Shown here: positions 23,698 to 55,135 of the stretch, piece by piece | Position numbering within the stretch: position 1 is the stretch's first letter | How the letters are laid out: every line of letters starts with the position of its first letter | Assembly: GCA_039026555.1 (NCBI GenBank) | Contig: JBCCMB010000001.1 | Location: forward strand, 5,631-69,630 | Source: Pseudomonadota bacterium | Lineage (GTDB): Bacteria; Pseudomonadota; Alphaproteobacteria; Caulobacterales; Hyphomonadaceae | Length of the DNA: 64,000 nt | Direction of reading: 5' to 3' | Position numbers and translations under genes: made by a program | The notes under the pieces: generated by a model | The model's database searches: none | Told to the model about the DNA's origin: nothing | Seen by the model: the letters and a program-made list of their open reading frames with translations, nothing else

Positions 23698-25613
23698 GCG
23701 AGGGCGATGACGGCTTCGAAATCAGGCTCGGCCGCATCCGCTCCCCCGCCGGCGTTCAGAAATCGCAGCGTTTCTTACGACAGGCCGCCCGCGGCGCAGG
23801 CCGGCTCGCCGGCGTCGGCAAGGGGCGCAATCGCCTGCCACGGTCTTCAGGGCGCGCGCTTCACTTTTATCGCCGCGTCTTGGTCAAAGCCCGTATCGTG
23901 CGCATGGTCGGGCGCGGCGCCGGCGCTCAACGGCTCCATCTCTCCTATATCGCGCGGGACGGCGCCGGACGCGATGGCGGGCGCGCCGGTCTGTTCGATG
24001 CGGCTGGCGAGGCCGACGCTAATGCGTTCTTGGACCGCGGCGCCGGCGACCGCCATCAATTCCGTTTCGTGATTTCGCCGGAGGACGCCGCCGATATGGC
24101 GGACCTTCCAGCCTTCACGCGGGACTTCGTCGCTCAGATGGAGGTTGATCTGGAGACGAGGCTCGATTGGGTCGCCGCAGATCATTACGACACCGACCAC
24201 CCCCATATTCACCTCGTGGTCGCCGGACGGCGCGAGGATGGCCGTGACCTCGTCATGCCTCGCGCCTACATCGCGCATGGCGTACGCGAACGCGCCCAAG
24301 CGCTCGTCGATCTCGAGCTTGGTCCGGTCAGTGAATTCGACGGCAAGCGCCGCCTCGCGCGCATGGTCGGTCAAGACCGCTTAACGGAGATCGATCGAAG
24401 TTTGATTCGTCGCGCGGAGGGCGGCGTTGCTGATCTGAAGGCGACTGGTCGTCCCGGCGAGCACTGGCTTAGACGTATCGAGCGCGCGCGCCTTCGAAAA
24501 CTTGAGCGCTTCGGTCTCGCCGAGGCGCTGGACAGCGATCGCTGGCGGCTTCGGACCGATACGCGCGCGACGCTCGAACGTATGGGCGCGCGCGGAGATG
24601 TCGTCAAAGCGATCAATTGCGGTCTGGCGCGCGCGGGACGGGCGCACACCGTCGACAGCGCGTCAATCTATGATGCGGCCGCTAAAGACGCCTCGGCGAT
24701 GACAGGACGGGTTGTGGCGCTCGGCGTCGCAGACGACGTCGAAGATCGCGCCTACGTCCTGATCGATCGGGAAGACGGGCGCGTCGTCTATGTCGACATT
24801 GGCGGCTCCGATCGCCTCGCTGAGGTTGAGGCGGGCTTCATCGTAACTGTGACGCCCTCGGCGGCGGAGCCGCGACTATCCGACAAAACAATCGCGCGCA
24901 TCGCCGATGAGAATAATGGCCGCTATAGCGCGCAGCTTCATCGCGCCGCCGATCCGGGCGCACGGGCGGAATTTATCAGCGCCCATGTCCGGCGCTTGGA
25001 AGCGATGCGGCGCGTCGGCTGCGCCGTCCGCAGCAGCAACGGCGAATGGACCATTCCCGGCGACTACCTCGCCCGCGCCGCCGCGATCGAACAGGCGAGG
25101 GCGGTTCGACGGCCGGTGGAGATAGACATCCGATCCAAACTCTCCCTGGGCGCCATGAAGACGGCGATCGGCGCGACCTGGTTGGACCGACATCTCAGGG
25201 ATTATGACATCGACGAATCAGCGAGGGGCTTTGGCGGCGACGTCGCAAGGGCGAGGCGGGAGCGCTTGGCGTTTCTGGAACACGGGGGATTTATTAAGCT
25301 AGGGACGAAGAGATTAGCGCCGGAAATTCTCGACGCGCTCAAAGCGCGCGATCTTGAAGAGGCTGGCGCAGACCTCTCAAAGCGCCTGCAGAAACCCTAC
25401 GTCGCCGCGCCAGACGTGGGAGAGGTTCACGGTGTTTACGCAGAGGCGATCGAACGTCCGAGCGGTCGATACGCCCTGATCGAATGGACTAAGGATTTCA
25501 CGCTGGTTCCATGGCGCGATGTGCTTGAGCGCGGTAGGGGCAAAGCGGTGTCGGGTGTCGTGCGCGGCGGAGGGATTTCTTGGAAGCTGACGAAGGGCAG
25601 AAGCGTTTCATAA
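23694..25613 (+). CDS. Conjugative relaxase/mobilisation nuclease (VirD2-like plus DUF3363-like C-terminus)
   Basis: DDGFEIRLGRIRS N-terminus. YIARDG, the Tyr-containing stretch, lies upstream of DHYDTDHPHIHLVV, the relaxase histidine triad. GTG 23694 overlaps the upstream TGA. Confidence 0.8.
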   Translation: MSEGDDGFEIRLGRIRSPAGVQKSQRFLRQAARGAGRLAGVGKGRNRLPRSSGRALHFYRRVLVKARIVRMVGRGAGAQRLHLSYIARDGAGRDGGRAGLFDAAGEADANAFLDRGAGDRHQFRFVISPEDAADMADLPAFTRDFVAQMEVDLETRLDWVAADHYDTDHPHIHLVVAGRREDGRDLVMPRAYIAHGVRERAQALVDLELGPVSEFDGKRRLARMVGQDRLTEIDRSLIRRAEGGVADLKATGRPGEHWLRRIERARLRKLERFGLAEALDSDRWRLRTDTRATLERMGARGDVVKAINCGLARAGRAHTVDSASIYDAAAKDASAMTGRVVALGVADDVEDRAYVLIDREDGRVVYVDIGGSDRLAEVEAGFIVTVTPSAAEPRLSDKTIARIADENNGRYSAQLHRAADPGARAEFISAHVRRLEAMRRVGCAVRSSNGEWTIPGDYLARAAAIEQARAVRRPVEIDIRSKLSLGAMKTAIGATWLDRHLRDYDIDESARGFGGDVARARRERLAFLEHGGFIKLGTKRLAPEILDALKARDLEEAGADLSKRLQKPYVAAPDVGEVHGVYAEAIERPSGRYALIEWTKDFTLVPWRDVLERGRGKAVSGVVRGGGISWKLTKGRSVS

Positions 25614-25953
25614 GCAAGTAGGGGAACGCAGATAAGCCTGGCTCGAGAGGGTATGTGCGGCTATCGCGTCTTTGCGCCGTCGATCTTGTCTGCATGGTTT
25701 ACTTATAGGCGCCTGCGATTTGTTTTAACTACGATGCATTTAGCCGTAACGCTCCAGCTACTATCCAAACCGCGTTGGGGCGGGCTTCAACTATGCGAAG
25801 CCCGCCGCCGTCCCGGCTCGCAGGTCCGGCAAGACGGCGGCGGGGTCTTGACGGCGCGGATCCTACTCCGCGCCCGCTCATCATGCGCGGTCCTGGACGC
25901 ACTCCGGGCGCACCCGGCGGTCCCTTAGGATCGCCGGCTCCGGCCCATTTGTG

Positions 25954-26079
25954 GAGCGTGCTGGCCACACGGAAACCGACATTGTTGTTTCGGTTCGTGG
26001 TGGTGTTCCTGTTGCGGTTCGCCGAGCGAAGGTTCTGCGGATTGTTGTTCCAGGAACCACCGCGGAGAACACGACGCGA
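25954..26079 (-). repeat. DGR template repeat (TR), 126 nt
   Basis: Collinear with the terminal 126 nt of four FGE-domain genes. It is AAY-rich (reads NNNPQNLRSANRNRNTTTNRNNN). By hand alignment, all mismatches to VR1, VR3 and VR4 lie at its adenines. The 3' end (GGCCAGCACGCTCCAC) differs from the VR ends (GGCCAGGACGCTTTRA). Confidence 0.85.
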
Positions 26080-26194
26080 GGGGACCGTGCAGGGATGACG
26101 GCCGACCGCACCGAAGCGCGGGCGTGAAGCAGGCGAAACGCGTTCGAGGCTGCAACCATCATCAATATTGAGATTGATCGGAGTCGCCCGGCAG

Positions 26195-26246
26195 AGCAAA
26201 AAAATCGAACCGGCTTCGCCGGTACAAGACGCGGGCTCTCGCCCGC
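26195..26246 (-). terminator. Post-VR1 module: GNRA-loop hairpin plus rho-independent terminator
   Basis: Coding sense: GCGGGC-GAGA-GCCCGC (26231-26246), then ACCGGCGAAGCCGGT (26209-26223) followed by TCGATTTTTTT. Confidence 0.6.
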
Positions 26247-26263
26247 GCTAAAGGAAAAAGGGG

Positions 26264-28648
26264 TCAAAGCGTCCTGGCCACACGGAAACCGACAAGGCTG
26301 CCTCGGTCCGCGGTGGTGCCCCTGAGGCGGTTCGCCGAGCGAAGGCTCTGCGGAATGTGGCTCCAGGAACCACCGCGGAGAACACGACGCGAACATTCTC
26401 CGATTGTCCAAGCAGAGCCGTTCGACGGACCCCCTGAATAACTGGCGTTCCAGCAATCTTGCGTCCATTCCCAGACATTGCCGATCATATCGTGAAGGCC
26501 AAAAGCGTTTGCCTGATATCTGCCAACCAGCGCTGTTTTTTTGCCTACGCCGTCGTCGCAAGTTGAAGTCGTCCAATTACTATCTTCTCGTTTCGCCGTG
26601 ATGTCGGCCGCATTCGAATACGCGCACCCCCCATTCCTATCGTTTCCCCAAGGATAGGCGCTCGTCGTCCCCGCACGCGCCGCATACTCCCATTCCGCCT
26701 CAGACAGAAGGCGATAGGTCTTACCCGTCTTGCGAGACAGCCAACCCGCATAGGCCTGAGCATCGTTCCAATCGACATTGATCACAGGACGCGATCCGCG
26801 ACCCCAGCCTTCATCCCCGCCTGTGCTCGCCGGCCCCGCATCATCGCACGTCCCGTCGGCGACGCATGCGCCCCATTCCGCCCAAGTCACCTCGTATTTG
26901 CCCACCGCGAACTGGTAGTCGATCCGCACAGTCCGGACCGGGCCTTCATCATCGTCGCGGCCTTCCTCCGACGACGGCGAGCCCATCACAAAACGGCCCG
27001 AGGGGATCACGACCATTTCGGGGCCTTGCCCGCCGCCCGAGAGCGCATCGCGGAACACCTGGCCGGGCGTTGAGGGGCGCTCTATCGCTTTGAGTTTCGC
27101 GCGCGCGGCGGCTGCGTTGGCGCCGGATGCGTGGGACGCTAAATACCGCTCATACCCAGCCTTGGTATCCGTGCGCTGCGCCAGCGCCCAGGCTTGCGCC
27201 TCCGCCTCCCGCGCCGCTTGCGCGCGTTGCTTCGCTGCGGCCGCCTCGGCTTCCGCTTTCAGGGCCGCCAGCCGCGTCCGCGCCCGCGCCGCATTCGGAC
27301 CGTTCGGATAGTCGGACAGGAAGCTCTCAATCGCACGGACGGTGTCGGTGCGTTCGGCGACCATCCACGCAGCGTTTTCAGAGATCTCAAATTCTCGCGC
27401 CGCGCGTTCGGCCCGGTCCGCAAACGCGGCGATGTCGTCCAACGCTCCCGTGGCCAGGTCCGGCGCCGTAAGGCCGGCGTCGCTCGCAAAGCTTGCGGCG
27501 GCGGCGATCGTGCCGCGTCCCGCTGCGCCGTCGACGCTGCTGGTGTAGAGGCCGAGACGCTTTAGCGCCGTCTGAACGCGCCGGATCGCTGACGCTCGCG
27601 CGGCGGGGGCGTCCGCAGAGGCCGCTAGCTCTTCGGTTCCGAGCGCAGTTGTTGATGTTTGCGAAGTTGACGACAGGCGATTAAGCGTTTCGAGCGCCTT
27701 GTCGATATTGTCCTTTAGCGTTTGGTCCGTCGTCTGCCGATCAAGCTGTTGCAGCAGCATCGCCGCTCTTTCCGACGACCTCGACGAGATTGGCGTATCA
27801 AGACGGCTGACGACGTTCGCCACGCCCAACTGCTCGTAGTAAACTTGGCTCTCAACACCCCATTCGACAAATTCCAGAATTGCGGATTCGTCCTCATCGC
27901 CATTGATGTTCTCGGCGATTTTTTCGCGCGCCCGCCTTCGAACAGCAGAAATATCAGACGTCAGATCAGAGATCAGCGCGGGGTCTAATCCAGCCACGGT
28001 TTCGCCGGCTGCGGTGGCTGTAGGTGCGCTCGTCGTCGTATCGCGCCAGCCGAAAGGGTCAAACGTCCAAAGGCCGCCGCCTAGACTGACCAAAAGTAGG
28101 GCGACAACAGCGGCGACAACACCGCCAGGACTCGCCTTCGTATCCGCCCCGGGACTACGACTTGGTTTGTCCGCCGGGACCTGTTGGCCGATGTTCAAGC
28201 CGCGGATCAAAACGCCGACATCATTGTCGAAACTGTCCGCGCGCAGCTTGACGCCGTGGCGCATGGAGAGTTCGCGGATGTCTTCGGGCAGCTCGTCCGC
28301 CTCCGGCACGGCGACGCCGTCCAGCAACACCGGGACGACGGGGATGTCGCGTTTCAACGCCGCCGCGATTTCCGCGCGCACGAAATCACGCGGATCGTCC
28401 AAGCGGCGCTTGCCGGTGTCGGGGTCGGCCGCGTTTAGCCAATTACGGCCGATCATGGCGAGGACCATGTCGCACTGGGCGACCGTCATATCGATCTGTT
28501 GCTTGAAGTTCAGCCCGACCGTCATGGAGTCCAGGTCGTAGAAAATGTCGACCTTGGGATCGTCGACTACCTTGGCCAACGCCTCATAAACCGACTTCGT
28601 CTGCCACTGGCTGTCGTCGCGCCTGTAAGAGATGAAGATCTTCGACAT
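26264..28648 (-). CDS. TIR - TM - PG-binding-like/helical repeats - FGE-sulfatase (C-type lectin fold) protein; DGR target 1
   Basis: Start at ATG 28648: MSKIFISYRRDDS (TIR). TM segment VVAAVVALLLVSLGGGLWTF. RRVQTALKRLGLYTSSVDGAAG is PG_binding_1-like. The C-terminal FGE domain has MVVIPSGRFVMGS, VNVDWNDAQAY, LLSEAEWEYAARAG, GLHDMIGNVWEW and RVLRGGSW. Confidence 0.85.
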   Translation of the reverse strand: MSKIFISYRRDDSQWQTKSVYEALAKVVDDPKVDIFYDLDSMTVGLNFKQQIDMTVAQCDMVLAMIGRNWLNAADPDTGKRRLDDPRDFVRAEIAAALKRDIPVVPVLLDGVAVPEADELPEDIRELSMRHGVKLRADSFDNDVGVLIRGLNIGQQVPADKPSRSPGADTKASPGGVVAAVVALLLVSLGGGLWTFDPFGWRDTTTSAPTATAAGETVAGLDPALISDLTSDISAVRRRAREKIAENINGDEDESAILEFVEWGVESQVYYEQLGVANVVSRLDTPISSRSSERAAMLLQQLDRQTTDQTLKDNIDKALETLNRLSSTSQTSTTALGTEELAASADAPAARASAIRRVQTALKRLGLYTSSVDGAAGRGTIAAAASFASDAGLTAPDLATGALDDIAAFADRAERAAREFEISENAAWMVAERTDTVRAIESFLSDYPNGPNAARARTRLAALKAEAEAAAAKQRAQAAREAEAQAWALAQRTDTKAGYERYLASHASGANAAAARAKLKAIERPSTPGQVFRDALSGGGQGPEMVVIPSGRFVMGSPSSEEGRDDDEGPVRTVRIDYQFAVGKYEVTWAEWGACVADGTCDDAGPASTGGDEGWGRGSRPVINVDWNDAQAYAGWLSRKTGKTYRLLSEAEWEYAARAGTTSAYPWGNDRNGGCAYSNAADITAKREDSNWTTSTCDDGVGKKTALVGRYQANAFGLHDMIGNVWEWTQDCWNASYSGGPSNGSAWTIGECSRRVLRGGSWSHIPQSLRSANRLRGTTADRGSLVGFRVARTL
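26267..26392 (-). repeat. DGR variable repeat VR1
   Basis: Last 42 codons of the gene. I count 15 mismatches to the TR, all at TR adenines, for example AAC AAC AAT to AGC CAC ATT. Confidence 0.85.
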
Positions 28649-28702
28649 ACGTCGTCCCCGCCGAACTCTAGAGAACACGCTAGTCCATCCATGAACGCAA
28701 TG

Positions 28703-29773
28703 TCACCCTAGAATGCGTTTGCCGTACTTTCGTTCGCCTAGAACTGCATTTCGCAGCTTGCGCGTGTGGGCGAAGTTGGCATGAGCCTCCCAGGCCTCGA
28801 TGCGGACGTGAGCGTCAGCCTCTGTCGTGGTTCCGGCGCTCAATTGGTCGCGGAGGCTGCGCAGGCGGTGACGGAAGCGCCGGATAGTCGCCTCGGGCAA
28901 GCGACGTACGCCTTTAGGCGCCAAGACATAGCACAGGAACTCCGCGGGCTCCGCTGTCGGCGCGACCCAAGTCTTCTGCGTATGAAGCTTTAACCGTCGC
29001 CCCTCCAGGAACCGAGCGATCCGATCCCGCCAATCTGCAAGGATTGCAGGATCGTCGTGAAACAATGCGAAATCGTCGACATATCGCACATAGGGCGCGC
29101 GGAGCACTTCAGTACAAAAATGGTCCAGCGGGTCTAGATAGAGATTGGCGAAAAATTGGCTGGTGAGATTTCCGATCGGCAGGCCGCGCCGGCGGGCGAC
29201 TGGCGCGAATAGATCGTCGCCTGGGAAATGTAGCTCCACCAGCTCTTGGCGGTTTGAAGCGTCGATGATGCAGTCCAGTAGGCCGAGCGTGCGCTCGCAT
29301 GCGAGACGCCGACGCAAATCGCGCTTGAGGATGGCGTGGTCGATGGCTGGGAAATAACGAAAGATGTCGCAGCGCAAGACGTAAGCGCAGCGATCACGAT
29401 AGCGCTCATACGCCTCCACCGCCCGGTGTGCGCCCTTGCCCCGCCGGTTGGCGAAGGTGTGAGCGATGAAGCCGCGTTCGAAAATTGGTTCTACGACGGC
29501 GCATACGGCGTGGTGAACCACGCGGTCGCGAAACGGGGCCGCGGAAACGATACGGTGCTTGGGATCGAAAAGTTCGATCTTCACATACCGGCCGGGGCGG
29601 TACTCGCCGCTTAACAGCGCGCGCTCAAGCGCCAAGCATTCCTTCTCTCGATCAGCCAGGAAAGCGGCGGCGCCAGGTTTCGTCTTTTTGCCGAGAGCTG
29701 CGCGGCGCGTCGCCGATACAAGCGCGCTGAAATTAGCGATCTGCGGACAAAGATTACGTTCACGCTTGGGCAT
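28703..29773 (-). CDS. DGR-type reverse transcriptase
   Basis: DPKHRIVSAAPFRDRVVHHAV, RRGLPIGNLTSQFFANLYL (the DGR hallmark I/LGxxxSQ) and YVRYVDDFALF (YxDD). 356 aa. No maturase or endonuclease domain and no intron-like flanks. Confidence 0.9.
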   Translation of the reverse strand: MPKRERNLCPQIANFSALVSATRRAALGKKTKPGAAAFLADREKECLALERALLSGEYRPGRYVKIELFDPKHRIVSAAPFRDRVVHHAVCAVVEPIFERGFIAHTFANRRGKGAHRAVEAYERYRDRCAYVLRCDIFRYFPAIDHAILKRDLRRRLACERTLGLLDCIIDASNRQELVELHFPGDDLFAPVARRRGLPIGNLTSQFFANLYLDPLDHFCTEVLRAPYVRYVDDFALFHDDPAILADWRDRIARFLEGRRLKLHTQKTWVAPTAEPAEFLCYVLAPKGVRRLPEATIRRFRHRLRSLRDQLSAGTTTEADAHVRIEAWEAHANFAHTRKLRNAVLGERKYGKRILG

Positions 29774-30143
29774 GACGCGCGGACGACGCTTTTAGCCAAC
29801 CTCCGATCAGACGTCCGACCTTGTCAATTTCACGAGCAGCGAATTCATAGCGGCGCGGGTCTAAATGGCGGAGATCATAGGCCAAGCGGAAGAGGTGGCG
29901 CAGTTTCTCCAGGCCGAGATTGGCGGCTTTCAGAGCTGGCGCGCGCTCGCGCGAATAGGTCGCGTCGATCAGGCGTTCCAGCACGTCTAGCGCGGTTCCC
30001 TGAATACGGTCGCCGAGGAGGAATTTCTGGCTGCGTGGAAACTTTTCGACCGCGGGGATCAGCCAGCGTAGGAAGCCGTTCATCGCTTCGAGCGCAGGAC
30101 CGATTTTCCGTTGCCCGGATTCATATTTCAGCGCCCCAAACAT
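29760..30143 (-). CDS. avd: Avd-like accessory variability determinant (four-helix-bundle protein)
   Basis: 127 aa, basic and helical (FPRSQKFLLGDRIQGTALDVLERLIDA...). Its 3' end overlaps the RT start by 14 nt. Confidence 0.75.
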   Translation of the reverse strand: MFGALKYESGQRKIGPALEAMNGFLRWLIPAVEKFPRSQKFLLGDRIQGTALDVLERLIDATYSRERAPALKAANLGLEKLRHLFRLAYDLRHLDPRRYEFAAREIDKVGRLIGGWLKASSARHAQA

Positions 30144-30849: not shown

Positions 30850-30901
30850 TTCAAAAAAATCGAACCGGCTTCGCCGGTACAAGGCGCGGGCTTGCGCCCG
30901 C
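30850..30901 (-). terminator. Post-VR2 module: GNRA-loop hairpin plus terminator
   Basis: Coding sense: GCGGGC-GCAA-GCCCGC (30886-30901), then ACCGGCGAAGCCGGT (30864-30878) followed by TCGATTTTTTT. Confidence 0.6.
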
Positions 30902-30918
30902 TATTAAGGAAAAAGGGC

Positions 30919-33858
30919 TTAAAGCGTCCTGGCCACACGGAAACCGACAAGGTTGAACCGGTCGCCTGTGTCGTTCCTGTCGCGGAACGCCGAGCGGAGG
31001 AGCTGCGGATCGTTGAGCCAGGAACCGCCGCGGAGAACACGACGCGAGCAGTCACCGGCCGTGTGCGGAGCACCGTCGGGAGGCTGAGAAGCAAGCGTGT
31101 CACGATAGCAATCCTCCACCCATTCCCAGACATTGCCATGCATGTCGTAAACGCCGAATGCGTTAGGCTTAAAGCTGCCGATGGGTGCGGTCTCCAAGTA
31201 ATTGCCTTCGCAATCCACGACATCCCACGACAAATTGTATTTTTGTTGTGTGTCGGGATTTGCGAGGTTGGCGTAGGTGCATATCTCTGCGGCGTCGTCC
31301 CCCCAGGAATACGCCGTTTGCGTCCCCGCCCTAGCGGCATATTCCCATTCGGCTTCCGTTAACAGGCGATAGGGGCCGCCGCCCGCGTCCTTCGAAATCA
31401 TCCAATTAAGCCAGCGCACATACCCCTGCGCGTCGTTCCAGTTCAGATTGATGGCGGGATAGGTTCCCGTCCCGAAGCCTGCATCGCTGAGCGGCGCGCA
31501 GCCGATTATTGCTTCGCCATCCTCGGCCGCTAACAAGGCCGCTTGATCTGTGAAGGCGACGCATCGCGCCCATTCCTGATGAGTGATCTCGAACTGGCCG
31601 ACGGCGAAACGTTGGATCTCGATCTCTTTCTGCGGCCCCTCATCGCGAAAGCGGCCGGTTTCGTCGTCAGGTGATCCCATGACGAAACTGCCTGCGGGAA
31701 TAACGACCATTTCCGGGCATTGGGCCTCGGCGGCGCACTCTCGGAATGTCGCGCGAGCGTCAAGATCGGCTAAATCCTGAGATGACAGCGCGTAGCGCGC
31801 ATAATCGAAACGCTGCACCCATTCTCGCTTCAGTTCGAACTCAAACGCGTATCCCATACTGCCAAGCACGACCAAAAGGCCCAACGCGCCGACCGTTGCG
31901 CCAAGAAGCCGCCGGCGAGTCTTAGACCGGTTCTCCGACTTCTGCGCAGCAGACAAATAGTTCTGCTCGACCTCCCCAAGCTGGGGGCCATAGCGGGGAT
32001 GGTCCGCCAGCGCCGAGGCCGCCTTCAGCCGTTCGCCGAAATGGGTGAGGTATTCGCCTCTACGCTCCTGGCGCGCCCAGATCGCGGCGGCCTGTTTCAA
32101 CCCGCGCAAGGCTTCCAGCCGGGCTTTTTCGGGCTCCAGCCAAGCCTCCAGGCGCGGCCATTTGCGGAACAAGGCTTCATGCGCGACTTCGACGGTCCCG
32201 CCTTCGTCTCCGCTTTCCTTACGCACCACCAGCCGCCAGCGGTCGAAGCGCTCCAACAACTCCCGCTCTTCCGGCCCGAACGCGCGCCACGCCGCCACGC
32301 GCCGGATCGCTTCGCCGTCGTCATTCACATCCGCCAGCGGCGGCACGAAGACGGCTGCGCCGAGCTTTGTCTGGTGCGCCTTCGCCCCGCCTGCAGGCAG
32401 GGCTGCGTCGCGCTGTTCCGGATCGATCCCGCACAAAGCGCGCTCGGCCGCGTCCTCGATCAGGCCCGAAAGCCCCCCCATGGAGGCGTAGTCCGCATGG
32501 GCGAGCTTGCCCGACACGGCGAACTGGTCCCACAACCTTTGCAGCGCGAAGGCGAGCAGCGGCAGCGCATCCTTGCCCGGCGCATCCTCCATCAGCGCGT
32601 CGGTGAGCGCGGGATCCACCTCCACGCCATAGCGCGCCGCCGGGTCCTCGGCGACGTCGTCGAAGCGGAAGACGGGCAGCGTGCGCAAATCATATCCGCG
32701 CGCCTCCAACCCCTGAAAACGCGGATGCGCCTGCAGCTCCGGAAAGCTGTCTGTCCGGATGGTGAAGGCGAGCCGGATTGGCGAGGCCGCCTCCATAGCG
32801 GCGCGCAGATAATCAGCGAGCGCCTGGCCGTTCTCCCCGTCGGCCCGGGCGATCTCCTCCGCCTGGTCGACGCTGATGAGGAGGGTCGCGCCCGGGCGAT
32901 TGGCGCGCGTGCGCAGGCGGGCGGCTTGATCCTCCAGTGTTGCAACTAGGGCGGCGCGCCCGTCCTCCGTCAGCTCGGCCTTGTCGTCGCGCGGGGCCTG
33001 GCGCCAAGCCTCCAGCAGCGTTCGCTTCAGCGCGCCATGGGCTTCGCGCGTTCCGAAATCCGCCAGCGTCCCAGTGATCGCCTCCGCGAAGTTAAGCAGA
33101 GGGTCCGCCCCCGGCCGGAAGGCGCGCAAGGGCAGCCAGGCCGGCGCTTCTCGCCGCAAACGCGGAATGATCCCAGCCTTCAAGAGCGAGGATTTCCCGG
33201 CGCCAGACGCGCCGAGAATCACCAGGGGACGTTTGTCCGCGGCCGCCCGCATGGCGCGTAATTCTTCAAGCGCTTCGGCGATCTCCCGCGAGCGGCCGAA
33301 GAACAGCGCGGCGTCCGCATCGTCATCGCCAAAACTCTGCAGCCCTGGAAAGGGCGAGGGCCGCGCTGCGCGGTCTATCTCGAACGCCGCTGGATCGAGG
33401 CCCACAGCCGACAGCGCCCCCGCCTCGCGTAGGCCCCGTTTCAGCGTCTCAGCGCGGTCTTCGTCGCGAGCGAGGCTCAAGCCCTCAGGCGTCAGGAAGG
33501 GCGTCAGATCCAGCCCCTGGGCCTCGGCGCGCACGCGGCCCAGCTCGGCGCGCTGTTTCTCGTCCAGCGTCGCCTCTTCGCCCAGCAGGAAAAGCGGAAT
33601 AATCCGCTTGCCCATATACCAGGCGGCCTTGAACTCGGACGGGCATTCGCCTGAGGCGAGCCAATTGGGCGTTACCAGGCACAAGACCACGCGGCAGGCG
33701 CCCGCGTTCGCTCTCAGCGCATCGGCCCACGCTTCGCCGCCGGAAATGCTCGAATGGTCGATAAAAAGATCGGTAAAGCCTTCGGCTCTCAGCCAGGCCT
33801 CAAGCCGGCTGGCCAAATCGTCATCCCGACTGGAATGGGAAATGAAAATCGTCGCCAC
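30919..33858 (-). CDS. TIR - STAND P-loop NTPase - TM - FGE-sulfatase (C-type lectin fold) protein; DGR target 2
   Basis: MATIFISHSSRDDD (TIR). FFGRSREI...RPLVILGASGAGKSSLLKAG (Walker A) and TLLISVDQAEE (Walker B), followed by a long helical region. TM segment LLGATVGALGLLVVLGSMGYAF preceded by KTRRR. The FGE domain has MVVIPAGSFVMGS, INLNWNDAQGY, LLTEAEWEYAARAG and GVYDMHGNVWEW. Confidence 0.85.
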   Translation of the reverse strand: MATIFISHSSRDDDLASRLEAWLRAEGFTDLFIDHSSISGGEAWADALRANAGACRVVLCLVTPNWLASGECPSEFKAAWYMGKRIIPLFLLGEEATLDEKQRAELGRVRAEAQGLDLTPFLTPEGLSLARDEDRAETLKRGLREAGALSAVGLDPAAFEIDRAARPSPFPGLQSFGDDDADAALFFGRSREIAEALEELRAMRAAADKRPLVILGASGAGKSSLLKAGIIPRLRREAPAWLPLRAFRPGADPLLNFAEAITGTLADFGTREAHGALKRTLLEAWRQAPRDDKAELTEDGRAALVATLEDQAARLRTRANRPGATLLISVDQAEEIARADGENGQALADYLRAAMEAASPIRLAFTIRTDSFPELQAHPRFQGLEARGYDLRTLPVFRFDDVAEDPAARYGVEVDPALTDALMEDAPGKDALPLLAFALQRLWDQFAVSGKLAHADYASMGGLSGLIEDAAERALCGIDPEQRDAALPAGGAKAHQTKLGAAVFVPPLADVNDDGEAIRRVAAWRAFGPEERELLERFDRWRLVVRKESGDEGGTVEVAHEALFRKWPRLEAWLEPEKARLEALRGLKQAAAIWARQERRGEYLTHFGERLKAASALADHPRYGPQLGEVEQNYLSAAQKSENRSKTRRRLLGATVGALGLLVVLGSMGYAFEFELKREWVQRFDYARYALSSQDLADLDARATFRECAAEAQCPEMVVIPAGSFVMGSPDDETGRFRDEGPQKEIEIQRFAVGQFEITHQEWARCVAFTDQAALLAAEDGEAIIGCAPLSDAGFGTGTYPAINLNWNDAQGYVRWLNWMISKDAGGGPYRLLTEAEWEYAARAGTQTAYSWGDDAAEICTYANLANPDTQQKYNLSWDVVDCEGNYLETAPIGSFKPNAFGVYDMHGNVWEWVEDCYRDTLASQPPDGAPHTAGDCSRRVLRGGSWLNDPQLLRSAFRDRNDTGDRFNLVGFRVARTL
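30922..31047 (-). repeat. DGR variable repeat VR2 (divergent)
   Basis: Same length and flanks as the other VRs. By my count ~16 mismatches lie at TR adenines and 6 at non-adenine positions (GGT to GGC, CTT to CTC, and within ACC ACC ACG to GAC ACA GGC). Confidence 0.65.
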
Positions 33859-44339: not shown

Positions 44340-45704
44340 GTGGGATGGCTTCTTAGAGCTTTGGTCTGGTCTGTGGCGCTTGTTTGCTGCGCAGGGTTGG
44401 TCGGATGGTTTCTCATCGCCGGGCATAAACATGTTGCGGGTCTAGACGGGCCGGGGCGGCAATTAGAGACCGCGGTGATCTCCGCTGATGGTAGATACGT
44501 CGCTATTTTGCTCAATGATGGGGCGGCGGATGTTCAAACGATTGAGGGGGAGACGCTCGGGCTTATTCGCGGGCACGACGCGCCGTTGGCGGCGGCGCAT
44601 TTTTCGCCCGACGGCGAGATACTGATCACGATTGACGACGCGGGCAGTGTCCGCCGAACGCGGCTGGAGGGGCTCTTTTTTCGAGAAAGGGGGCATGGCG
44701 CCGATATGTCGGCGGCGGTCGAGCAGGCGGTTTGGGGCGATGCGTTGGCCGCACCGGCGGCGCTATTATGGGAGACAAGCGCGATCCATGCGCCCTGGAA
44801 GGCGTCGTCGCAGATTATGGATGCAGACACGCGCGCGCCTGTTTTGCCAAAGGGCGCAGTCCCGCCGCCGAGGAGCATGTTTCGAGATTGCGCAGATTGC
44901 CCGGAAATGCTGGTTGTTCCGCCGGGCGCATTCCTTATGGGCTCTCCTGAAGATGAAGAGGGGCGTGATCCCGATGAGGGCCCGCAGCGAGACGTGCGGA
45001 TCGATTATCCTTTCGCCGCGGCGCGGTTTGAGACGACGCTCGCGGAGTTTCAACGCTTCATGAAAGAGACTGGCCATGCGCCGGCGGGCGGGTGCGTCGC
45101 CGATTCCAACGGCGATGGGTTGTTGTCCGATGAGCCTGAGGCTAATTGGTCAAACACGGGGTTTGAACAAAGCGACGCCCAGCCCGCAGCCTGCGTTTCG
45201 TGGAACGACGCGCAGGCCTATGTGCATTGGCTGTCGCGCAAAACGGGCGAGACGTATCGTCTGCTTTCGGAAGCGGAATGGGAGTATGCGGCTCGGGCTG
45301 GGACGACGAGCGCCTATTTCTGGGGCTCAAGCGCAGATGCCGGCTGCGCTTATATGAACGGAGCGGACGCGACGGCGAAGCGCTCCTATCCTGGCTGGAC
45401 GACCGTGAGTTGCGATGACGGCTATTTGAATACGTCGCCCGTAGGCTCGTTCAACGCGAATGCATTTGGTCTTTACGACATGACGGGCAATGTTTCGGAG
45501 TGGACTGAGGATTGCTGGAATGAGAGCTATTCCGGTGCGCCGATAAATGGCTCGGCGTGGATAAGCGGCGAGTGCTCGCGTCGTGTTCTCCGCGGTGGTT
45601 CCTGGAGCGGCTATCCGCGGAGCCTTCGCTCGGCGCTCCGCGGCTGGAACTCCACCTCGGACCGGTACGACCATGTCGGTTTCCGTGTGGCCAGGACGCT
45701 TTAA
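44340..45704 (+). CDS. N-terminal TM anchor - short WD40-like segment - FGE-sulfatase (C-type lectin fold) protein; DGR target 3
   Basis: GTG start. TM segment LVWSVALVCCAGLVGWFLIAG. The FGE domain has MLVVPPGAFLMGS, VSWNDAQAYVHWLSRKTGETYRLLSEAEWEYAARAG, GLYDMTGNVSEW and RVLRGGSW. Confidence 0.8.
   Translation: MGWLLRALVWSVALVCCAGLVGWFLIAGHKHVAGLDGPGRQLETAVISADGRYVAILLNDGAADVQTIEGETLGLIRGHDAPLAAAHFSPDGEILITIDDAGSVRRTRLEGLFFRERGHGADMSAAVEQAVWGDALAAPAALLWETSAIHAPWKASSQIMDADTRAPVLPKGAVPPPRSMFRDCADCPEMLVVPPGAFLMGSPEDEEGRDPDEGPQRDVRIDYPFAAARFETTLAEFQRFMKETGHAPAGGCVADSNGDGLLSDEPEANWSNTGFEQSDAQPAACVSWNDAQAYVHWLSRKTGETYRLLSEAEWEYAARAGTTSAYFWGSSADAGCAYMNGADATAKRSYPGWTTVSCDDGYLNTSPVGSFNANAFGLYDMTGNVSEWTEDCWNESYSGAPINGSAWISGECSRRVLRGGSWSGYPRSLRSALRGWNSTSDRYDHVGFRVARTL
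45576..45701 (+). repeat. DGR variable repeat VR3
   Basis: I count 18 mismatches to the TR, all at TR adenines. It is on the opposite strand and ~19.5 kb from the TR. Confidence 0.85.
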
Positions 45705-45723
45705 CCCCCTTTTTCCTTTAACA

Positions 45724-54400: not shown

Positions 54401-55135
54401 CCCGAGATGGTCGTGATTCCGTCGGGTCGGTTCCTGATGGGTTCGCCGGCGTCTGAGGCCGCGCGCGACGATGATGAAGGCCCGGTTCGGACGGTTCGGA
54501 TCGATTATCAGTTTGCGGTCGGCAAGTATGAAGTGACCTGGGCGGAATGGGAGGCGTGCGTCGCCGACGGCGCGTGCGATGACGCCGGTCCGGTCGGCGC
54601 AGACGGGGATGAAGGCTGGGGGCGCGGGTCGCGTCCTGTGATCAATGTGGATTGGAACGATGCGCAGGCCTATGTGCGCTGGCTGTCGCGCAAAACGGGC
54701 AAGACGTATCGTCTGCTGTCTGAAGCGGAATGGGAGTATGCGGCTCGCGGGGTGACGACCACAGAAGCCGTCTCGACGCGTTTCAGCTGGGGAGACGAGG
54801 ATCCGGTTTGCGAACGCGGCGCGCCGAACGGGGCGGTGTTTAGTCGATGCGAAGGCGGGGGAACGCGGCCCGTTGGGTTTTCGGCTCCGAACGCCTTTGG
54901 TCTTTACGATATGCACGGCAATGTTTGGGAATGGGTGGAGGATTGCTGGAATGACAGCTATTCTGGCGCGCCATCGAACGGCTCAGCTTGGACGCGCGGC
55001 GGATGTTCGCGTCGTGTTCTCCGCGGTGGTTCCTGGGGCAACGATCCGCAGCTCCTTCGCTCGGCGGACCGCCTCAGGAGCACCACCGCGAACCGACTCG
55101 ACTATGTCGGTTTCCGTGTGGCCAGGACGCTTTAA
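48413..55135 (+). CDS. Giant 2240-aa multidomain protein: N-terminal domain - TM - WD40 repeats - TM - large unassigned region - ~7 TM helices - propeller-like region - caspase-like (C14) domain - FGE-sulfatase domain; DGR target 4
   Basis: Six 42-aa WD40 repeats (TRILSWSxDxTVRLWDAQTGDQIG). Hydrophobic helices at about aa 115, 650 and 1130-1400. Caspase-like RRLALVIGNAEYEQLPDLKNPLNDA...VYFGGQG...NYLIPTD...FVLDTCRND. The FGE domain has MVVIPSGRFLMGS...RVLRGGSW. Confidence 0.85.
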   Translation: MADGASAAEFEDEEVARLLGDELERLFDRLDEAGLLVGPRERSAAYAIAFQWLGGTRAPPARASEAMWRLRPMLAPVLARTQNDRAVFFHVFDTNYEPQPINPPDEPDPPLKGWPWRRIVLGIAATIMLSGLASVVYHRTQNEADVVVVEDGPSGVAKIEPIQTDGDAPVATERRAAPLADQTANDFLNRIRDAATAIDGDVYRYGLAPTLEEVAKELIDDSRSLRNATPADGGGVALSSQTTILAGGVLSGAAFSNDETRILSWSSDNTVRLWDAQTGDQIGPSMQHNFIVRGAVFSKDDTRILSWSVDNTVRLWDAQTGDQIGPSMQHEDAVGGAAFSNDETRILSWSDDATVRLWNAQTGNQIGTLMGHGRDVYGAAFSKDETRILSWSRDATVRLWDAQTGDQIGPSLQHEHVVLGAAFSKDETRILSWSDDATVRLWDANTGDQIGRPMVHKGRVSGAALSKDESRILTWSEDGRISSWSDPGASLDAEWSADAYARRLSDLTGLPGGAPLSIFANNGALWARLAHALSRMEQPGRETSLSQLRADAAKSLEDVQPSRVDRIAEKLRALDAPPTDRAALFDAVFALDEAAASDAPSIDQNIGFGPASDVLRAAAIAGLDAARYGDPPWLNLKPPARPAASPAPAWLWPLSVLIPLAFAFWVASSLALKRAYLRRRAPRVPPLHTKFVSEAGRNVAYQAGLFQRAAQQLLTRTPRASAAIDIPATVSATLAEGGEIIAPVFKDARLRPEYLVLIEANAAGDQEARRLRRMAERLEDIVDLDVFYYQTDPGELESEDGANRITIEQAQSRYPDHRLIILGTGGGFLDAVDLSLRPPAQKLFYWERRALLTPIPLAEWSKEDYALAKALEMPIGRATPEGLLTLAELLGLEGAEAGTEPNPSGDGLARPLPDLFRNRSQRFLFNAPPDQATIADLLRELRNYLDPSAFDWFASLAVYPNVQWDLTLLLGVKLPRAPGEDFATNPLYDERRLAAITQLPWLRSGRMPNWLRRTLISKLSPERREEIKAVLDELLENARPKNKHEVDAIELSIRRDKPKDTTRTDRLLDDEVLLDFLASGQREDFALARFSRFAELFDRGFWDRIGGPEGVAGAAALAFSLTAFVVTPRAADGAVVTGAYAPLWLLGVGGLLVFAFWKPDIAAARLGAAFERAAPGALALFLATLGPLAAAYVSARSGVDPLSIVATSNTTSFWIWGAYIAQFGLLVGGLWVSRSICTRFGLRIYVAASLPDWAELSIKAAGLGAFALAITALAGNVPGLAEFSRSPLVDPDQLDASAMLWLGGCLAVFLLGWLAAQFAPDMQTIRAASAGRSAKPALFAIVARALAALVPVVASLAAYWHVSLTSSRSDLAMDETVFRPALTAISPDGETLAAVDIAGRLVVSHANAAAPYRADPTQLSDARAPFTALAVGGEGEAVIAFADADGRVFEATPYRDAVAPVVDPSENSGRARSDGAPAQLAFGPNAQLWTAIETAEVGVRVITAGRAWNDAEQSGPPQALIAVSGGRAALATLDGRIRLVTPTSDGLAVQLIGASGSLAPSRQLSFDPDTMTLRAGLIDGEIWEANLVDSGASFEFVGRANAMALGPAPLYTTSSEISPFVGPATPSGRRLALVIGNAEYEQLPDLKNPLNDARLISESLESLGFEVSRLQNASRNEMLQAVRQHAQNVAAAGRNSVSFVYFGGQGVEIDGQNYLIPTDLSAHEPATVRSDSLLLNDVISEIDTVGPAASLFVLDTCRNDPFSGQRGSIGQGFAPANAPTNTFIAFAVEPGGIALDSLDARDNNSPYTSTLAETLLIPGLSVQDAFAEVRRKVTAATSGEQVPWISDRLASEFCFAGCEVQTPEPAAIPSALPPRLYIQIASEAQREDALRVREALSPLDVDVPEFEVRSASMPDRGEFRYFRRSEEGLARETYNALPDLDAGGAAFVYVSGYEDSEDIRDNHFELWLPGPTMLEDDFQPGFEFRDVIEGAPEIATPEMVVIPSGRFLMGSPASEAARDDDEGPVRTVRIDYQFAVGKYEVTWAEWEACVADGACDDAGPVGADGDEGWGRGSRPVINVDWNDAQAYVRWLSRKTGKTYRLLSEAEWEYAARGVTTTEAVSTRFSWGDEDPVCERGAPNGAVFSRCEGGGTRPVGFSAPNAFGLYDMHGNVWEWVEDCWNDSYSGAPSNGSAWTRGGCSRRVLRGGSWGNDPQLLRSADRLRSTTANRLDYVGFRVARTL
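49150..49900 (+). repeat. Tandem 126-bp in-frame repeats encoding WD40 blades
   Basis: Period 126 nt (units start at 49166, 49292, 49418 and so on). Units 1 and 3 share an identical 45-nt string, GGCGCGGCGTTCTCAAATGATGAAACACGCATCCTCTCATGGAGC. The sixth unit is degenerate. Confidence 0.85.
55007..55132 (+). repeat. DGR variable repeat VR4
   Basis: I count 14 mismatches to the TR, all at TR adenines. It is on the opposite strand and ~29 kb from the TR. Confidence 0.85.

What the first reader, a model, noticed from the sequence alone, without database searches (positions are those of the whole stretch)
26195..26270. Conserved target-recognition module after every VR: IMH-like end, T-rich spacer, GNRA-tetraloop hairpin, terminator
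Downstream of all four VRs the sequence runs GGCCAGGACGCTTT(A/G)A(C/G)CCC..TTTTCCTT. A short GC hairpin with a GNRA loop follows: GCGGGC-GAGA-GCCCGC after VR1 and VR3, GCGGGC-GCAA-GCCCGC after VR2, and GCCGC-GCAA-GCGGC after VR4. A second hairpin and a T-run come next. The other copies are at 30850-30925, 45695-45770 and 55127-55206. The TR copy diverges exactly here (GGCCAGCACGCTCCACAAATGG) and lacks the hairpins. This mirrors the IMH/IMH* asymmetry and the downstream hairpin/cruciform known to direct cDNA to the VR in the Bordetella phage BPP-1 DGR. Conservation of stem and loop class with a changed stem sequence at VR4 argues for selection on structure.
Basis: partly seen in the sequence, partly recalled or inferred. 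Interest (0 to 1): 0.7.

Follow-up and report, generated by a model that had tools for sequence, protein, structure and literature searches.

The report
DGR target-site tail with two DNA mini-hairpins
Each of the four genes that one diversity-generating retroelement mutates here ends in the same 70-85 base non-coding tail, a known kind of homing signal in an unusual two-hairpin form, and it occurs only after such genes.

Summary
All four variable repeats (VR) are followed by GGCCAGGACGCT, a stop codon, a pyrimidine tract, a GC hairpin with a four-base loop, a second hairpin with a GAA loop, and a T-run.

A structure model built without VR4 and without the VR homology finds VR4 at E=2e-4. It finds nothing else in the 64 kb. 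In 1.27 Mb of related loci, all 17 of its matches lie directly after VR ends. The module is therefore not a generic terminator or REP element.

Four details need correcting:
- The loop class is c(GNNA)g and c(GNA)g, the "mini-hairpin DNA" motifs, always on the sense strand. It is not GNRA; close relatives have GCCA, GTCA and GACA.
- The element conserved across the whole reverse-transcriptase clade is the second hairpin with TCGA and the T-run, not the first hairpin.
- The T-run sits 3-8 bases from the stem, which is atypical for a terminator.
- The template repeat (TR) has its own conserved RNA tail. The VR-specific G is complementary to a base in the tail's primer strand, and the two bases covary across loci.

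This is a new variant of a known kind, of moderate interest. No function was tested.

The parts
26198..26279 (-). Module after VR1 (target 1, TIR-FGE protein 26264-28678). In order: IMH end GGCCAGGACGCT 26268-26279 (VR-specific G at 26273), stop TGA 26264-26266, pyrimidine tract 26250-26263, two hairpins, TCGA 26205-26208, T7 26198-26204.
   Evidence: 91 bits
26230..26247 (-). Hairpin 1 of VR1: CGCGGGC-GAGA-GCCCGCG. Its core GCGAGAGC is a mini-hairpin DNA motif.
   Evidence: PMC13037366
26209..26223 (-). Hairpin 2 of VR1: ACCGGC-GAA-GCCGGT, core GCGAAGC, followed by TCGA and T7.
30853..30934 (-). Module after VR2 (TIR-nSTAND1-FGE protein 30919-33858). IMH end 30923-30934, tract 30903-30918, hairpin 1 GCGGGC-GCAA-GCCCGC 30886-30901, hairpin 2 30864-30878, TCGA 30860-30863, T7 30853-30859.
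   Evidence: 93 bits
45689..45772 (+). Module after VR3 (FGE protein 44340-45704). IMH end 45689-45700, tract 45705-45719, hairpin 1 GCGGGC-GAGA-GCCCGC 45724-45739, hairpin 2 45747-45761, then TCGGTTTT 45762-45769 (weak T-run).
   Evidence: 89 bits
55120..55206 (+). Module after VR4 (WD40-caspase-FGE protein 48413-55135). IMH end 55120-55131, tract 55136-55150, hairpin 1 GCCGC-GCAA-GCGGC 55157-55170, hairpin 2 ACTCGC-GAA-GCGGGT 55180-55194 (one compensatory change and one G-T wobble relative to VR1-3), T7 55200-55206.
   Evidence: 24 bits, E=2e-4, with a model built without this copy
26268..26392 (-). VR1.
   Evidence: 15 of 16 differences from the TR are at TR adenines
30923..31047 (-). VR2.
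   Evidence: 16 differences at TR adenines plus 7 non-A differences
45575..45700 (+). VR3.
   Evidence: 18 of 19 differences at TR adenines
55007..55131 (+). VR4.
   Evidence: 14 of 15 differences at TR adenines
25955..26080 (-). Template repeat (TR). Its IMH* end GGCCAGCACGCTCC is at 25953-25966, with C at 25960 where the VRs have G.
25870..25954 (-). Donor-side RNA tail of the TR. Internal hairpin 25914-25937. Putative primer strand GGAGTGCGTCCAGG 25892-25905, which pairs with the TR's ACGC and places a C opposite the TR's C at 25960. CATGATGAG 25877-25885.
   Evidence: 12 of 19 pairs with compensatory changes in 25 loci; no Rfam match
28703..29773 (-). DGR reverse transcriptase.
   Evidence: RVT_1, E=2e-14; 100% identical to an RNA-directed DNA polymerase of a Pseudomonadota MAG
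29760..30143 (-). Accessory variability determinant (bAvd).
   Evidence: PF22296, E=3e-17

Best explanation
The four stretches are the recipient-side cis-element of one DGR. This tail marks the 3' end of a C-type-lectin/FGE gene as a place where mutagenised cDNA from the single TR may be installed. It lets one RT/Avd/TR set serve four genes, including two that lie 19 and 29 kb away on the other strand.

The element has two parts.

1. The IMH end (..CCAG-G-ACGCT). It differs from the TR's IMH* (..CCAG-C-ACGCT) at one base. In the donor RNA this base sits in the helix between the TR's 3' end and the primer strand downstream of the TR (GCGUCC-A). There the TR's C faces a C, a mismatch, whereas the VR's G would pair with it. 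By analogy with BPP-1, the RNA primer remains joined to the cDNA's 5' end. It would therefore anneal better to the VR sense strand than to TR DNA, which gives the process its direction.

2. A purine-poor pyrimidine spacer, then two GC hairpins whose loops are the very stable DNA mini-hairpin motifs GCGNNAGC and GCGNAGC, always on the sense strand, then TCGA and a T-run. The sense strand is the strand the cDNA must pair with. It is the lagging-strand template when the gene points with replication. The inferred role of the hairpins is to fold out of single-stranded or supercoiled DNA just 3' of the VR and to pause replication or hold the site open, so that the RNA-cDNA hybrid can invade like an Okazaki fragment.

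The T-run may in addition give some transcription termination.

Shown here: the anatomy, the restriction to VR ends, the covariation, the strand bias and the loop class. Inferred: hairpin formation in DNA and any effect on homing.
For: DGR identity and A-only mutagenesis are established.

The module is specific to VR ends:
- It is absent elsewhere in the window.
- All 17 covariance-model hits in 1.27 Mb of related loci lie directly after VR ends.
- Of 18 GNA-triloop-plus-T-run hairpins that first appeared to lie outside VR zones, 12 proved to follow VRs my detection had missed.

Selection on structure:
- Four pairs carry compensatory double changes and 94% of cells are paired.
- The module is more conserved than the adjacent coding DNA.

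Strand bias and loop class:
- GCGNAGC occurs 71 times on the sense strand against 2 on the antisense strand in 109 VR-flank zones, at 5.0 per kb against 0.65 per kb background.
- GCGNNAGC occurs 31 against 4 times.
- GNA loops make up 36 of 57 triloop hairpins after VRs, against 6% elsewhere.
- These are the mini-hairpin DNA motifs. Measured Tm values are 76 C for GCGAAGC and 71.5-72 C for GCGAGAGC and GCGCAAGC (PMC13037366).

Literature on BPP-1:
- The BPP-1 hairpin is c(GAAA)g on an 8-bp GC stem. It is needed for efficient homing, with stem structure and loop sequence both mattering (PMC3240598; PMC12875486).
- Targets co-directional with replication are edited best, and in that orientation the sense strand is the lagging-strand template (PMC12875486).
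- RNA primer pairing with the IMH, and hairpin-mediated unwinding or replication pausing, were proposed for BPP-1 (PMC5703328).

Primer-strand evidence found here:
- VR G faces RNA C in 44 loci. VR A faces RNA U in 5 loci, at 4 separate places in the RT tree, with the TR staying C. There were no clean exceptions; three further loci were scored at a different (adenine) position and are uninformative.
- In BPP-1, Sp 47-56 forms 9 Watson-Crick pairs plus 1 G-U with the VR, against 6 Watson-Crick pairs, 1 G-U and 3 mismatches with the TR.
Against: - No experiment was possible, so a role in homing rests on analogy and comparative data.
- Folding energies are not exceptional, and VR4's hairpin 1 is weak with DNA parameters (z = -0.5).
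- About half of the VR flanks in the wider clade lack a perfect hairpin of this class. A survey found GC inverted repeats in only 34% of DGRs (PMC5758913).
- The hairpin-to-VR distance varies from 3 to 107 nt across the clade.
- The sense-strand bias fits an RNA-level role equally well.
- Two targets lie on each strand of the window. They cannot all be co-directional with replication unless an origin or terminus lies between them, and GC skew gives no sign of one.
- The hand-registered alignment behind favours the structure it tests.
- Conservation among VR1-3 could partly reflect gene conversion between paralogues.
Confidence: 0.6

Rival explanations
1. The hairpins and T-run are ordinary Rho-independent terminators of the four target genes. 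They look alike only because the C-terminal cassettes (FGE domain, VR and 3' flank) are recent duplicates or are homogenised by gene conversion.
For: - Hairpin 2 with its T-run is picked up by the terminator scan after VR1 and VR2.
- The RNA fold extends hairpin 2 to a 9-bp stem ending at the U-run.
- T-runs follow 35 of 56 such hairpins in the clade.
- The four C-terminal domains are paralogues.
Against: - The module is 79-84% identical among VR1-3, while the coding DNA upstream of the VRs is only 56-68% identical.
- Stems change by compensation in VR4 and in other genomes.
- Loop identity (GNA or GNNA closed by C-G), the TCGA spacer and the pyrimidine tract persist across an RT clade that spans phyla, down to 45% RT identity.
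- The T-run is offset 3-8 nt from the stem in most cases, and VR3 has only T4.
- Only 4 terminator-like hairpins exist in the whole 64 kb. The other two have different loops (TAGG and TGCT, neither GNA nor GNNA).
- At VR1 an efficient terminator would block read-through into the TR, and no sigma-70-like promoter was found in the scanned region around the TR.
Confidence: 0.2
2. The element acts in the mRNA. It would be a structured 3' UTR with GNRA-type loops that stabilises or regulates the target transcripts, or is bound by an RNA-binding partner.
For: - The loops are always on the transcribed sense strand.
- GAGA, GCAA and GTAA are GNRA tetraloops.
- The hairpins fold in RNA.
Against: - Three of the 10 hairpin-1 copies of the sub-lineage have loops that are not GNRA (GCCA, GTCA, GACA).
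- The dominant clade-wide loop is a C-G-closed GNA triloop. This is the hallmark of stable DNA mini-hairpins, not of a recognised stable RNA motif; that last point is my own knowledge.
- No Rfam family matches.
- The experimentally characterised DGR counterpart acts as DNA, shown by T7 endonuclease I cleavage that depends on supercoiling (PMC3240598).
Confidence: 0.1
3. The element is a generic dispersed repeat (REP/MITE-like) or a site-specific recombination site (attC-like) that happens to sit after these genes.
For: It is a short, structured, repeated non-coding element at gene ends. The window looks like a mobile island, with a relaxase at 23610-25613.
Against: - There are exactly four copies in 64 kb, all at VR ends.
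- All 17 model hits in 1.27 Mb of related loci are at VR ends.
- The element keeps a fixed orientation relative to the VR.
- No attC-type core sites were noticed. No search for an integrase was made.
Confidence: 0.03

Closest known systems
IMH plus downstream hairpin/cruciform of the Bordetella phage BPP-1 DGR (Guo et al. 2011, PMC3240598; Naorem et al. 2017, PMC5703328)
   Same: - The element sits immediately 3' of a VR and is absent from the TR.
- The IMH differs from the IMH*.
- There is a GC-rich stem with a 4-base loop G-N-N-A closed by C-G on the sense strand. BPP-1 has GCGGGGCC-GAAA-GGCCCCGC.
- Stem sequence is free while pairing is kept.
- The VR-specific IMH base(s) are complementary to the RNA primer strand next to the TR, while the TR's own bases are mismatched.
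   Different: - There are two hairpins in tandem, a tetraloop and then a GAA triloop.
- Stems are 5-7 bp rather than 8 bp.
- Hairpin 1 starts 20-25 nt after the end of homology, separated by a pyrimidine tract. In BPP-1 it starts directly after the stop codon.
- Loops GCAA, GCCA and GTCA break the published GRNA consensus.
- A TCGA and T-run follow.
- The IMH/IMH* difference is a single base before total divergence, not 5 of 21.
- The same tail is used at four genes, two of them remote and on the opposite strand.
- Gene order is avd-RT-target-TR.
Trinucleotide-loop hairpins of nanoarchaeal DGRs (Paul et al. 2015, PMC4372165)
   Same: A DGR-associated hairpin with a constrained G-R-A three-base loop. 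This resembles hairpin 2 (GAA) and the clade-wide GNA loops found here.
   Different: In the nanoarchaeal DGRs the hairpin lies inside the target gene. Here it is non-coding, follows a pyrimidine tract, is followed by TCGA and a T-run, and the loop is GNA (GCA and GTA are also common).
Mini-hairpin DNA, d(GCGNAGC) and d(GCGNNAGC) (review PMC13037366)
   Same: Every hairpin core in the window matches exactly: GCGAGAGC, GCGCAAGC, GCGAAGC. Such motifs mark single-stranded DNA signals such as the phage G4 origin, ssiA, and phage N4 early promoters.
   Different: In the literature I could search, these motifs have not been linked to DGR targets. Formation in this DNA is not shown.
Rho-independent transcription terminator
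   Same: A GC-rich stem-loop followed by a T-run at a gene end. Two of the four copies pass a simple terminator scan.
   Different: The T-run is offset by a conserved TCGA(A) spacer. The loop and flanks are conserved in sequence across phyla. The element is restricted to VR ends. A second hairpin and a pyrimidine tract belong to it.
DGR-diversified conflict systems with STAND/TIR/caspase plus FGE-type lectin sensors (Dore et al. 2024, PMC10907252; Vallota-Eastman et al. 2020, PMC7517822)
   Same: The targets have the same protein architectures (TIR-nSTAND1-FGE, caspase-WD40-FGE, and a trypsin-like peptidase nearby) and include remote targets.
   Different: Those papers do not describe the 3' cis-element. 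[quoted passage not shown]

Membership tests
DGR target-site element (IMH + hairpin/cruciform) | Lies at the 3' end of a VR whose differences from a TR fall at TR adenines, with an RT and an accessory protein present. | tested here: met
   VR1, VR3 and VR4 differ from the TR only at adenines, apart from the one IMH base. RVT_1 and bAvd domains were found.
DGR target-site element (IMH + hairpin/cruciform) | Imperfect repeat (IMH versus IMH*) after the mutagenised zone distinguishes recipient from donor. | tested here: met
   VR G against TR C, then complete divergence. VR purine against TR pyrimidine in about 58 of 75 related pairs.
DGR target-site element (IMH + hairpin/cruciform) | GC-rich inverted repeat of 7-10 bp, 4-34 bp downstream of the VR, absent after the TR. 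| tested here: inconclusive
   Hairpin 1 starts 20-25 nt after the end of homology, which is within range, but its stems are 5-7 bp. Hairpin 2 starts at 44-49 nt, which is outside range. The hairpins are absent after the TR.
DGR target-site element (IMH + hairpin/cruciform) | Four-base loop with consensus 5'-GRNA on the sense strand. | tested here: not met
   GAGA fits. GCAA (VR2, VR4) and the relatives' GCCA, GTCA and GTAA do not. The observed class is G-N-N-A closed by C-G.
DGR target-site element (IMH + hairpin/cruciform) | Stem pairing is conserved while stem sequence varies. | tested here: met
   4 pairs with changes on both sides, 94% of cells paired, and 0 of 500 shuffles reach the covariation score. 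The alignment was registered by hand on the loops.
DGR target-site element (IMH + hairpin/cruciform) | Needed for efficient retrohoming, and forms a hairpin or cruciform in DNA. | not testable with these tools
   Requires homing assays and nuclease probing.
Mini-hairpin DNA motif | Core sequence GCGNAGC or GCGNNAGC. | tested here: met
   All eight hairpins in the window match. The motif definition comes from PMC13037366.
Rho-independent terminator | A stable GC-rich stem followed directly by a U-rich tract. | tested here: inconclusive
   VR1 and VR2 pass a simple scan. However, the perfect stem ends 4-5 nt before the T-run, VR3 has only T4, and the usual offset across the clade is 3-8 nt.
Generic dispersed repeat (REP/MITE-type) | Many copies after unrelated genes. 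| tested here: not met
   four copies in the window, all at VR ends; 17 of 17 hits in related loci are at VR ends. The whole genome was not available.
Curated RNA families (Rfam 15) | A match to a covariance model. | tested here: not met
   no match with E up to 1 in 25000-31500. That range covers two modules and the TR tail.

The most novel reading that the evidence does not exclude
In this large RT clade the VR tail may be a two-part address, read entirely at the nucleic-acid level.

1. The RNA primer strand, still joined to the cDNA, base-pairs with the VR-specific IMH base(s). This is now supported by four independent compensatory changes between VR DNA and the RNA next to the TR, and by the BPP-1 sequences.
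2. A purine-poor spacer, with SSB-resistant DNA mini-hairpins on the lagging-strand template and a TCGA/T-run, creates the entry point. It might do so by blocking Okazaki-fragment synthesis or by recruiting a primase-like activity just 3' of the VR.

On this reading the tail would be a portable tag. Attached to any lectin-fold C-terminus, anywhere in the genome, it would recruit that gene as a DGR target. This would explain how immune-type proteins with shuffled N-terminal domains become targets.
Probability: 0.3. Interest if true: 0.7.

Novelty: new variant of a known kind. Interest (0 to 1): 0.42.

Why it matters
How DGR cDNA finds and enters its target is the main unsolved step of mutagenic retrohoming. 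It was stated as unknown as recently as 2026 (PMC12875486).

This locus and its relatives give a natural data set for that question:
- A compact non-coding tail occurs only after VRs. It serves both local and remote targets.
- Its conserved features are DNA mini-hairpin loops on the sense strand, a pyrimidine spacer, TCGA and a T-run.
- A VR base covaries with the RNA primer strand.

These features yield specific mutations to test. They also give a search pattern for finding remote DGR targets in genomes, and a candidate minimal tag for retargeting DGRs in engineering.

If the tail is only a terminator, the finding is ordinary.

Tried and rejected
1. RNA guide against the pyrimidine tract. I looked for complementarity between each VR tract and its own avd-RT-TR transcript. 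The longest run averaged 8.8 nt, against 7.9 nt for shuffled tracts. There is no signal.

2. Primer strand matching the VR-specific flank beyond the IMH. L005 and L006 looked striking, with 10-11 nt matches. Over 57 pairs, however, the run is longer with the TR (5.4) than with the VR (4.3). Only the single asymmetric base is systematically VR-complementary.

3. Novelty of the primer:IMH pairing idea. I derived it from the sequences, then found it already proposed for BPP-1 by Naorem et al. 2017. It is therefore not claimed as new. Only the comparative covariation is added here.

4. Plasmid database search with 25600-31100: no match.

5. Rfam search: no match.

6. GC skew, to place an origin or terminus between the oppositely oriented targets: uninformative.

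7. A plain MAFFT alignment of the modules mis-registers the 5-bp and 6-bp stems. I therefore used loop-registered sequences and a covariance model.

8. Folding z-scores alone do not separate the modules from shuffled sequence.

9. The Legionella DGR paper (PMC3657778) is not held, so its hairpin could not be compared.


Full report
**What is in the window**

The window holds one diversity-generating retroelement (DGR) with four targets.
- On the minus strand lie bAvd (29760-30143), the reverse transcriptase (28703-29773), and a TIR-FGE target gene (26264-28678) that ends in VR1 (26268-26392).
- The template repeat TR follows at 25955-26080.
- VR2 (30923-31047) ends a TIR-nSTAND1-FGE gene just upstream of avd.
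- VR3 (45575-45700) ends an FGE gene on the plus strand.
- VR4 (55007-55131) ends a 2240-residue WD40-caspase-FGE gene, also on the plus strand.

In VR1, VR3 and VR4 every difference from the TR lies at a TR adenine, except for one base near the 3' end. VR2 has seven further non-adenine differences. The RT is identical to a protein from a Pseudomonadota metagenome-assembled genome and has thousands of homologues at 65-80% identity.

**The observation**

Each VR ends in GGCCAGGACGCT. After it come:
- a stop codon;
- a pyrimidine tract (CCCCTTTTTCCTTT and variants);
- hairpin 1, which is (C)GCGGGC-GAGA/GCAA-GCCCGC(G) in VR1-3 and GCCGC-GCAA-GCGGC in VR4;
- hairpin 2, which is ACCGGC-GAA-GCCGGT in VR1-3 and ACTCGC-GAA-GCGGGT in VR4;
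- TCGA or a variant of it;
- a T-run (T7 in VR1, VR2 and VR4, but only T4 in VR3).

The TR carries C where the VRs have the second G of CAGGAC, and it is unrelated to them after ACGCT.

**Is it specific?**

The IMH motif occurs exactly four times, and the hairpin sequences occur nowhere else in the window. A scan for any hairpin with these loop cores finds seven others in the 64 kb, none of them followed by a T-run. The window has only four terminator-like hairpins in all, and two of them are the modules after VR1 and VR2.

I built a covariance model from the pyrimidine tract to the T-run of VR1-3 plus two relatives. It left out the IMH and VR4.
- With filters off it finds VR4 at 24 bits, E=2e-4, through compensated stems. 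The next best match has E=4.2.
- In 1.27 Mb of related loci, all 17 matches with E up to 1 lie directly after VR ends.

**Is it under selection?**

Among VR1-3 the module is 79-84% identical. The coding DNA just upstream of the VRs is 56-68% identical, and the DNA beyond the T-run is 45-58% identical. VR4's module is only 62-68% identical to the others but keeps both hairpins.

A scan of metagenome contigs for the IMH alone and of genomes for RT relatives recovered more copies of the two-hairpin module, in L002, L083, L084 and L101/L113. Over nine distinct sequences:
- hairpin 1 uses three stem versions (GCGGGC/GCCCGC, GCCGC/GCGGC, GCGGC/GCCGC);
- hairpin 2 uses four stem versions;
- four pairs change on both sides and 94% of cells are paired;
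- none of 500 shuffles reaches the covariation score.

That alignment was registered by hand on the loops, which favours the structure being tested. Folding energies alone are not exceptional.

**What class of hairpin is it?**

The hairpin-1 loops in this lineage are GAGA, GCAA, GTAA, GCCA, GTCA and GACA. This is G-N-N-A closed by C-G. It is not GNRA, and it is not the GRNA consensus published for phage DGRs. Hairpin 2 always has GAA closed by C-G.

Both cores are the "mini-hairpin DNA" motifs GCGNNAGC and GCGNAGC. Measured Tm values are 71.5-72 C for GCGAGAGC, GCGCAAGC, GCGTAAGC and GCGACAGC, and 76 C for GCGAAGC. These motifs occur at single-stranded DNA signals such as the phage G4 origin and phage N4 promoters (PMC13037366). 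The functional hairpin of phage BPP-1, read from AY029185, is GCGGGGCC-GAAA-GGCCCCGC, which is the same class.

**The wider clade**

I identified 75-110 VR ends in the related loci by their adenine-specific mismatches to a TR or by the IMH pattern. A common anatomy appears, from Alphaproteobacteria to Cyanobacteria:
- a pyrimidine-rich tract;
- a GC hairpin with a GNA triloop;
- TCGA(A);
- a T-run.

The numbers behind this are as follows.
- The tract averages 68% pyrimidine, against 50 +/- 8% for background. CTTTAC occurs in 36 of 77 tracts.
- GNA loops make up 36 of 57 triloop hairpins after VRs, against 6% elsewhere.
- Of 18 GNA-plus-T-run hairpins that first appeared to lie "elsewhere", 12 proved to follow VRs my detection had missed.
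- GCGNAGC occurs 71 times on the sense strand and twice on the antisense strand of the VR flanks. GCGNNAGC occurs 31 and 4 times.
- The T-run usually starts 3-8 nt after the stem, and TCG is the first triplet after the stem in 17 of 56 cases.

Hairpin 2 of the window is therefore the clade-wide element. Hairpin 1 is an addition of this sub-lineage. Proximal tetraloop hairpins also occur in some other sub-lineages, often with the stop codon inside the loop or stem. About half of all VR flanks lack a perfect hairpin of this class.

**The donor side**

The TR does not simply lack the hairpins. Its 3' flank (25870-25954) is a conserved structured RNA, and 12 of 19 predicted pairs show compensatory changes across 25 loci. 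No Rfam family matches it.

In this RNA the TR's ACGCTC pairs with GAGCGU downstream. The asymmetric TR base (C or U) faces a conserved C. Next comes a G-C pair and the sequence CAG. This matches the template:primer duplex of BPP-1, where Sp A56 primes and G57 follows.

The VR's G is complementary to that conserved C. In five loci the VR has A instead and the RNA base is U, while the TR stays C. These five loci sit at four separate places in the RT tree. In 44 loci the pairing is G with C, and there are no clean exceptions (three further loci were scored at a different, adenine position and are uninformative).

I checked BPP-1 directly. Sp 47-56 forms 6 Watson-Crick pairs, one G-U and three mismatches with TR 118-127. 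It forms 9 Watson-Crick pairs and one G-U with the corresponding VR bases.

This idea is not new. Naorem et al. 2017 noted that the RNA primer pairs better with the IMH than with the IMH*. They proposed that this sets direction and that the hairpin aids unwinding or replication pausing. What is added here is independent comparative support from a distant clade.

A motif upstream of the TR also pairs with the distal part of the tail, and it is kept in the window. The TR unit therefore looks intact, even though a target gene sits between the RT and the TR.

**Most likely mechanism**

The tail is the recipient mark of the DGR.
- The IMH base lets the cDNA-linked RNA primer anneal to the VR sense strand better than to the TR.
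- The sense-strand mini-hairpins fold out next to the VR when the DNA is single-stranded or supercoiled, and they pause replication or hold the site open.

The sense strand is the strand the cDNA pairs with. It is the lagging-strand template for targets that point with replication, and such targets are edited best (PMC12875486). The pyrimidine tract may simply keep the spacer unable to compete for pairing; this is a guess. The T-run may add some termination. Only the anatomy and the comparative signals are shown here. Hairpin formation and any effect on homing are inferred.

**Rivals**

- A plain terminator plus recent duplication is the main alternative (about 0.2). Against it stand the higher conservation than coding DNA, the compensatory changes, the sequence-level conservation of loop and flanks across phyla, the offset T-run, and the position of VR1's module upstream of the TR.
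- An mRNA-level element (about 0.1) fits the strand bias but not the loop classes.
- A generic repeat or recombination site (about 0.03) is contradicted by the restriction to VR ends.

**Verdict**

This is a new variant of a known DGR cis-element, not a new kind of system.

It is moderately interesting for three reasons:
- It defines a compact, searchable tag for local and remote targets.
- It links DGR target hairpins to the DNA mini-hairpin motifs.
- It supplies comparative support and concrete mutations for the unsolved integration step.

Noticed in passing
window 25870-25966 (- strand): The 3' flank of the TR is a conserved structured RNA. A helix forms between the TR end and a downstream primer strand (GCGTCCAG), with an internal hairpin and a CATGATGAG motif. 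In 25 related loci, 12 of 19 predicted pairs show compensatory changes. No Rfam family matches.
   Followed up: partly
window 26273, 30928, 45695, 55126 (VR G) against 25960 (TR C) and 25896-25897 (primer-strand CC, - strand); loci L007, L016, L034, L039, L052: There is intermolecular covariation. The VR base at the IMH/IMH* asymmetry is complementary to the RNA primer-strand base: G:C in 44 loci, and A:U in 5 loci at 4 separate places in the RT tree. The TR keeps a mismatching pyrimidine. In BPP-1, Sp 47-56 pairs 9 Watson-Crick + 1 G-U with the VR, against 6 + 1 with the TR. Naorem et al. 2017 had already proposed primer:IMH pairing for BPP-1.
   Followed up: yes
window 25955-30143; L002 5805-9702: The gene order is unusual: avd, RT, target gene with VR1, then the TR. 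Nearly all relatives have target, avd, RT, then the TR directly after the RT. The closest relative, L002, shares the unusual order. The motif upstream of the TR that pairs with the distal tail is retained at about 26085-26100.
   Followed up: partly
window 30923-31047: VR2 differs from the TR at 7 non-adenine positions, including a short block CACCACCACG against CGACACAGGCG. The other three VRs have none. VR2 may be decaying, or may have been altered by another process.
   Followed up: no
VR flanks in L003-L113, for example L010 5887-5960 and L006 9544-9620: Across the clade the 30-50 nt after the VR are pyrimidine-rich, with repeated CTTTACC/CTTTACCTC units. Some read ACCTCCTTA, like the 3' end of 16S rRNA. 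No complementarity to the DGR transcript was found, and the function is unknown.
   Followed up: partly
L041 1033, L043 9514, L049 189, L054 9389, L082 5353, L087, L104, L107: In other sub-lineages a hairpin starts inside the last codons, so that the stop codon lies in its loop or stem. Examples are GCTCGCGC-GATA-GCGCGAGC and GCTTTAGGCC-CTT-GGCCTAAAGC. The pyrimidine tract and the distal GNA hairpin follow.
   Followed up: partly
L101 8151-8270 (identical in L113): A roughly 45-nt insertion with its own inverted repeat (GGGAAATTGATC..GATCAATTTC) separates hairpin 1 from hairpin 2. This shows the two hairpins are separable units, with hairpin 1 staying close to the VR.
   Followed up: no
window 30222-30551 and upstream (also L001 110-660): A DUF433/DUF5615 gene pair, which looks like a toxin-antitoxin pair, sits between the VR2 module and avd. 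A sigma-70-like promoter match lies at 30806-30778 (- strand).
   Followed up: no
window 36450-48388 and 55784-58732: The surroundings are an island of conflict-system genes: a LuxR-type regulator (36450-37178), a trypsin-like peptidase (40773-42641), a PG-binding protein (42776-44218), TIR-iSTAND (45966-47306), an AAA ATPase (47315-48388), and TIR-WD40 (55784-58732).
   Followed up: no
window 23610-25613: A relaxase/DUF3363 protein is encoded right next to the TR tail. This suggests the DGR island sits on, or beside, a mobilisable element. A search of the plasmid collection found no match.
   Followed up: no
window 49039-49842: Five tandem copies of a 126-nt unit (62-84% identical) lie inside the WD40-caspase-FGE gene. 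They are consistent with WD40 repeats.
   Followed up: no
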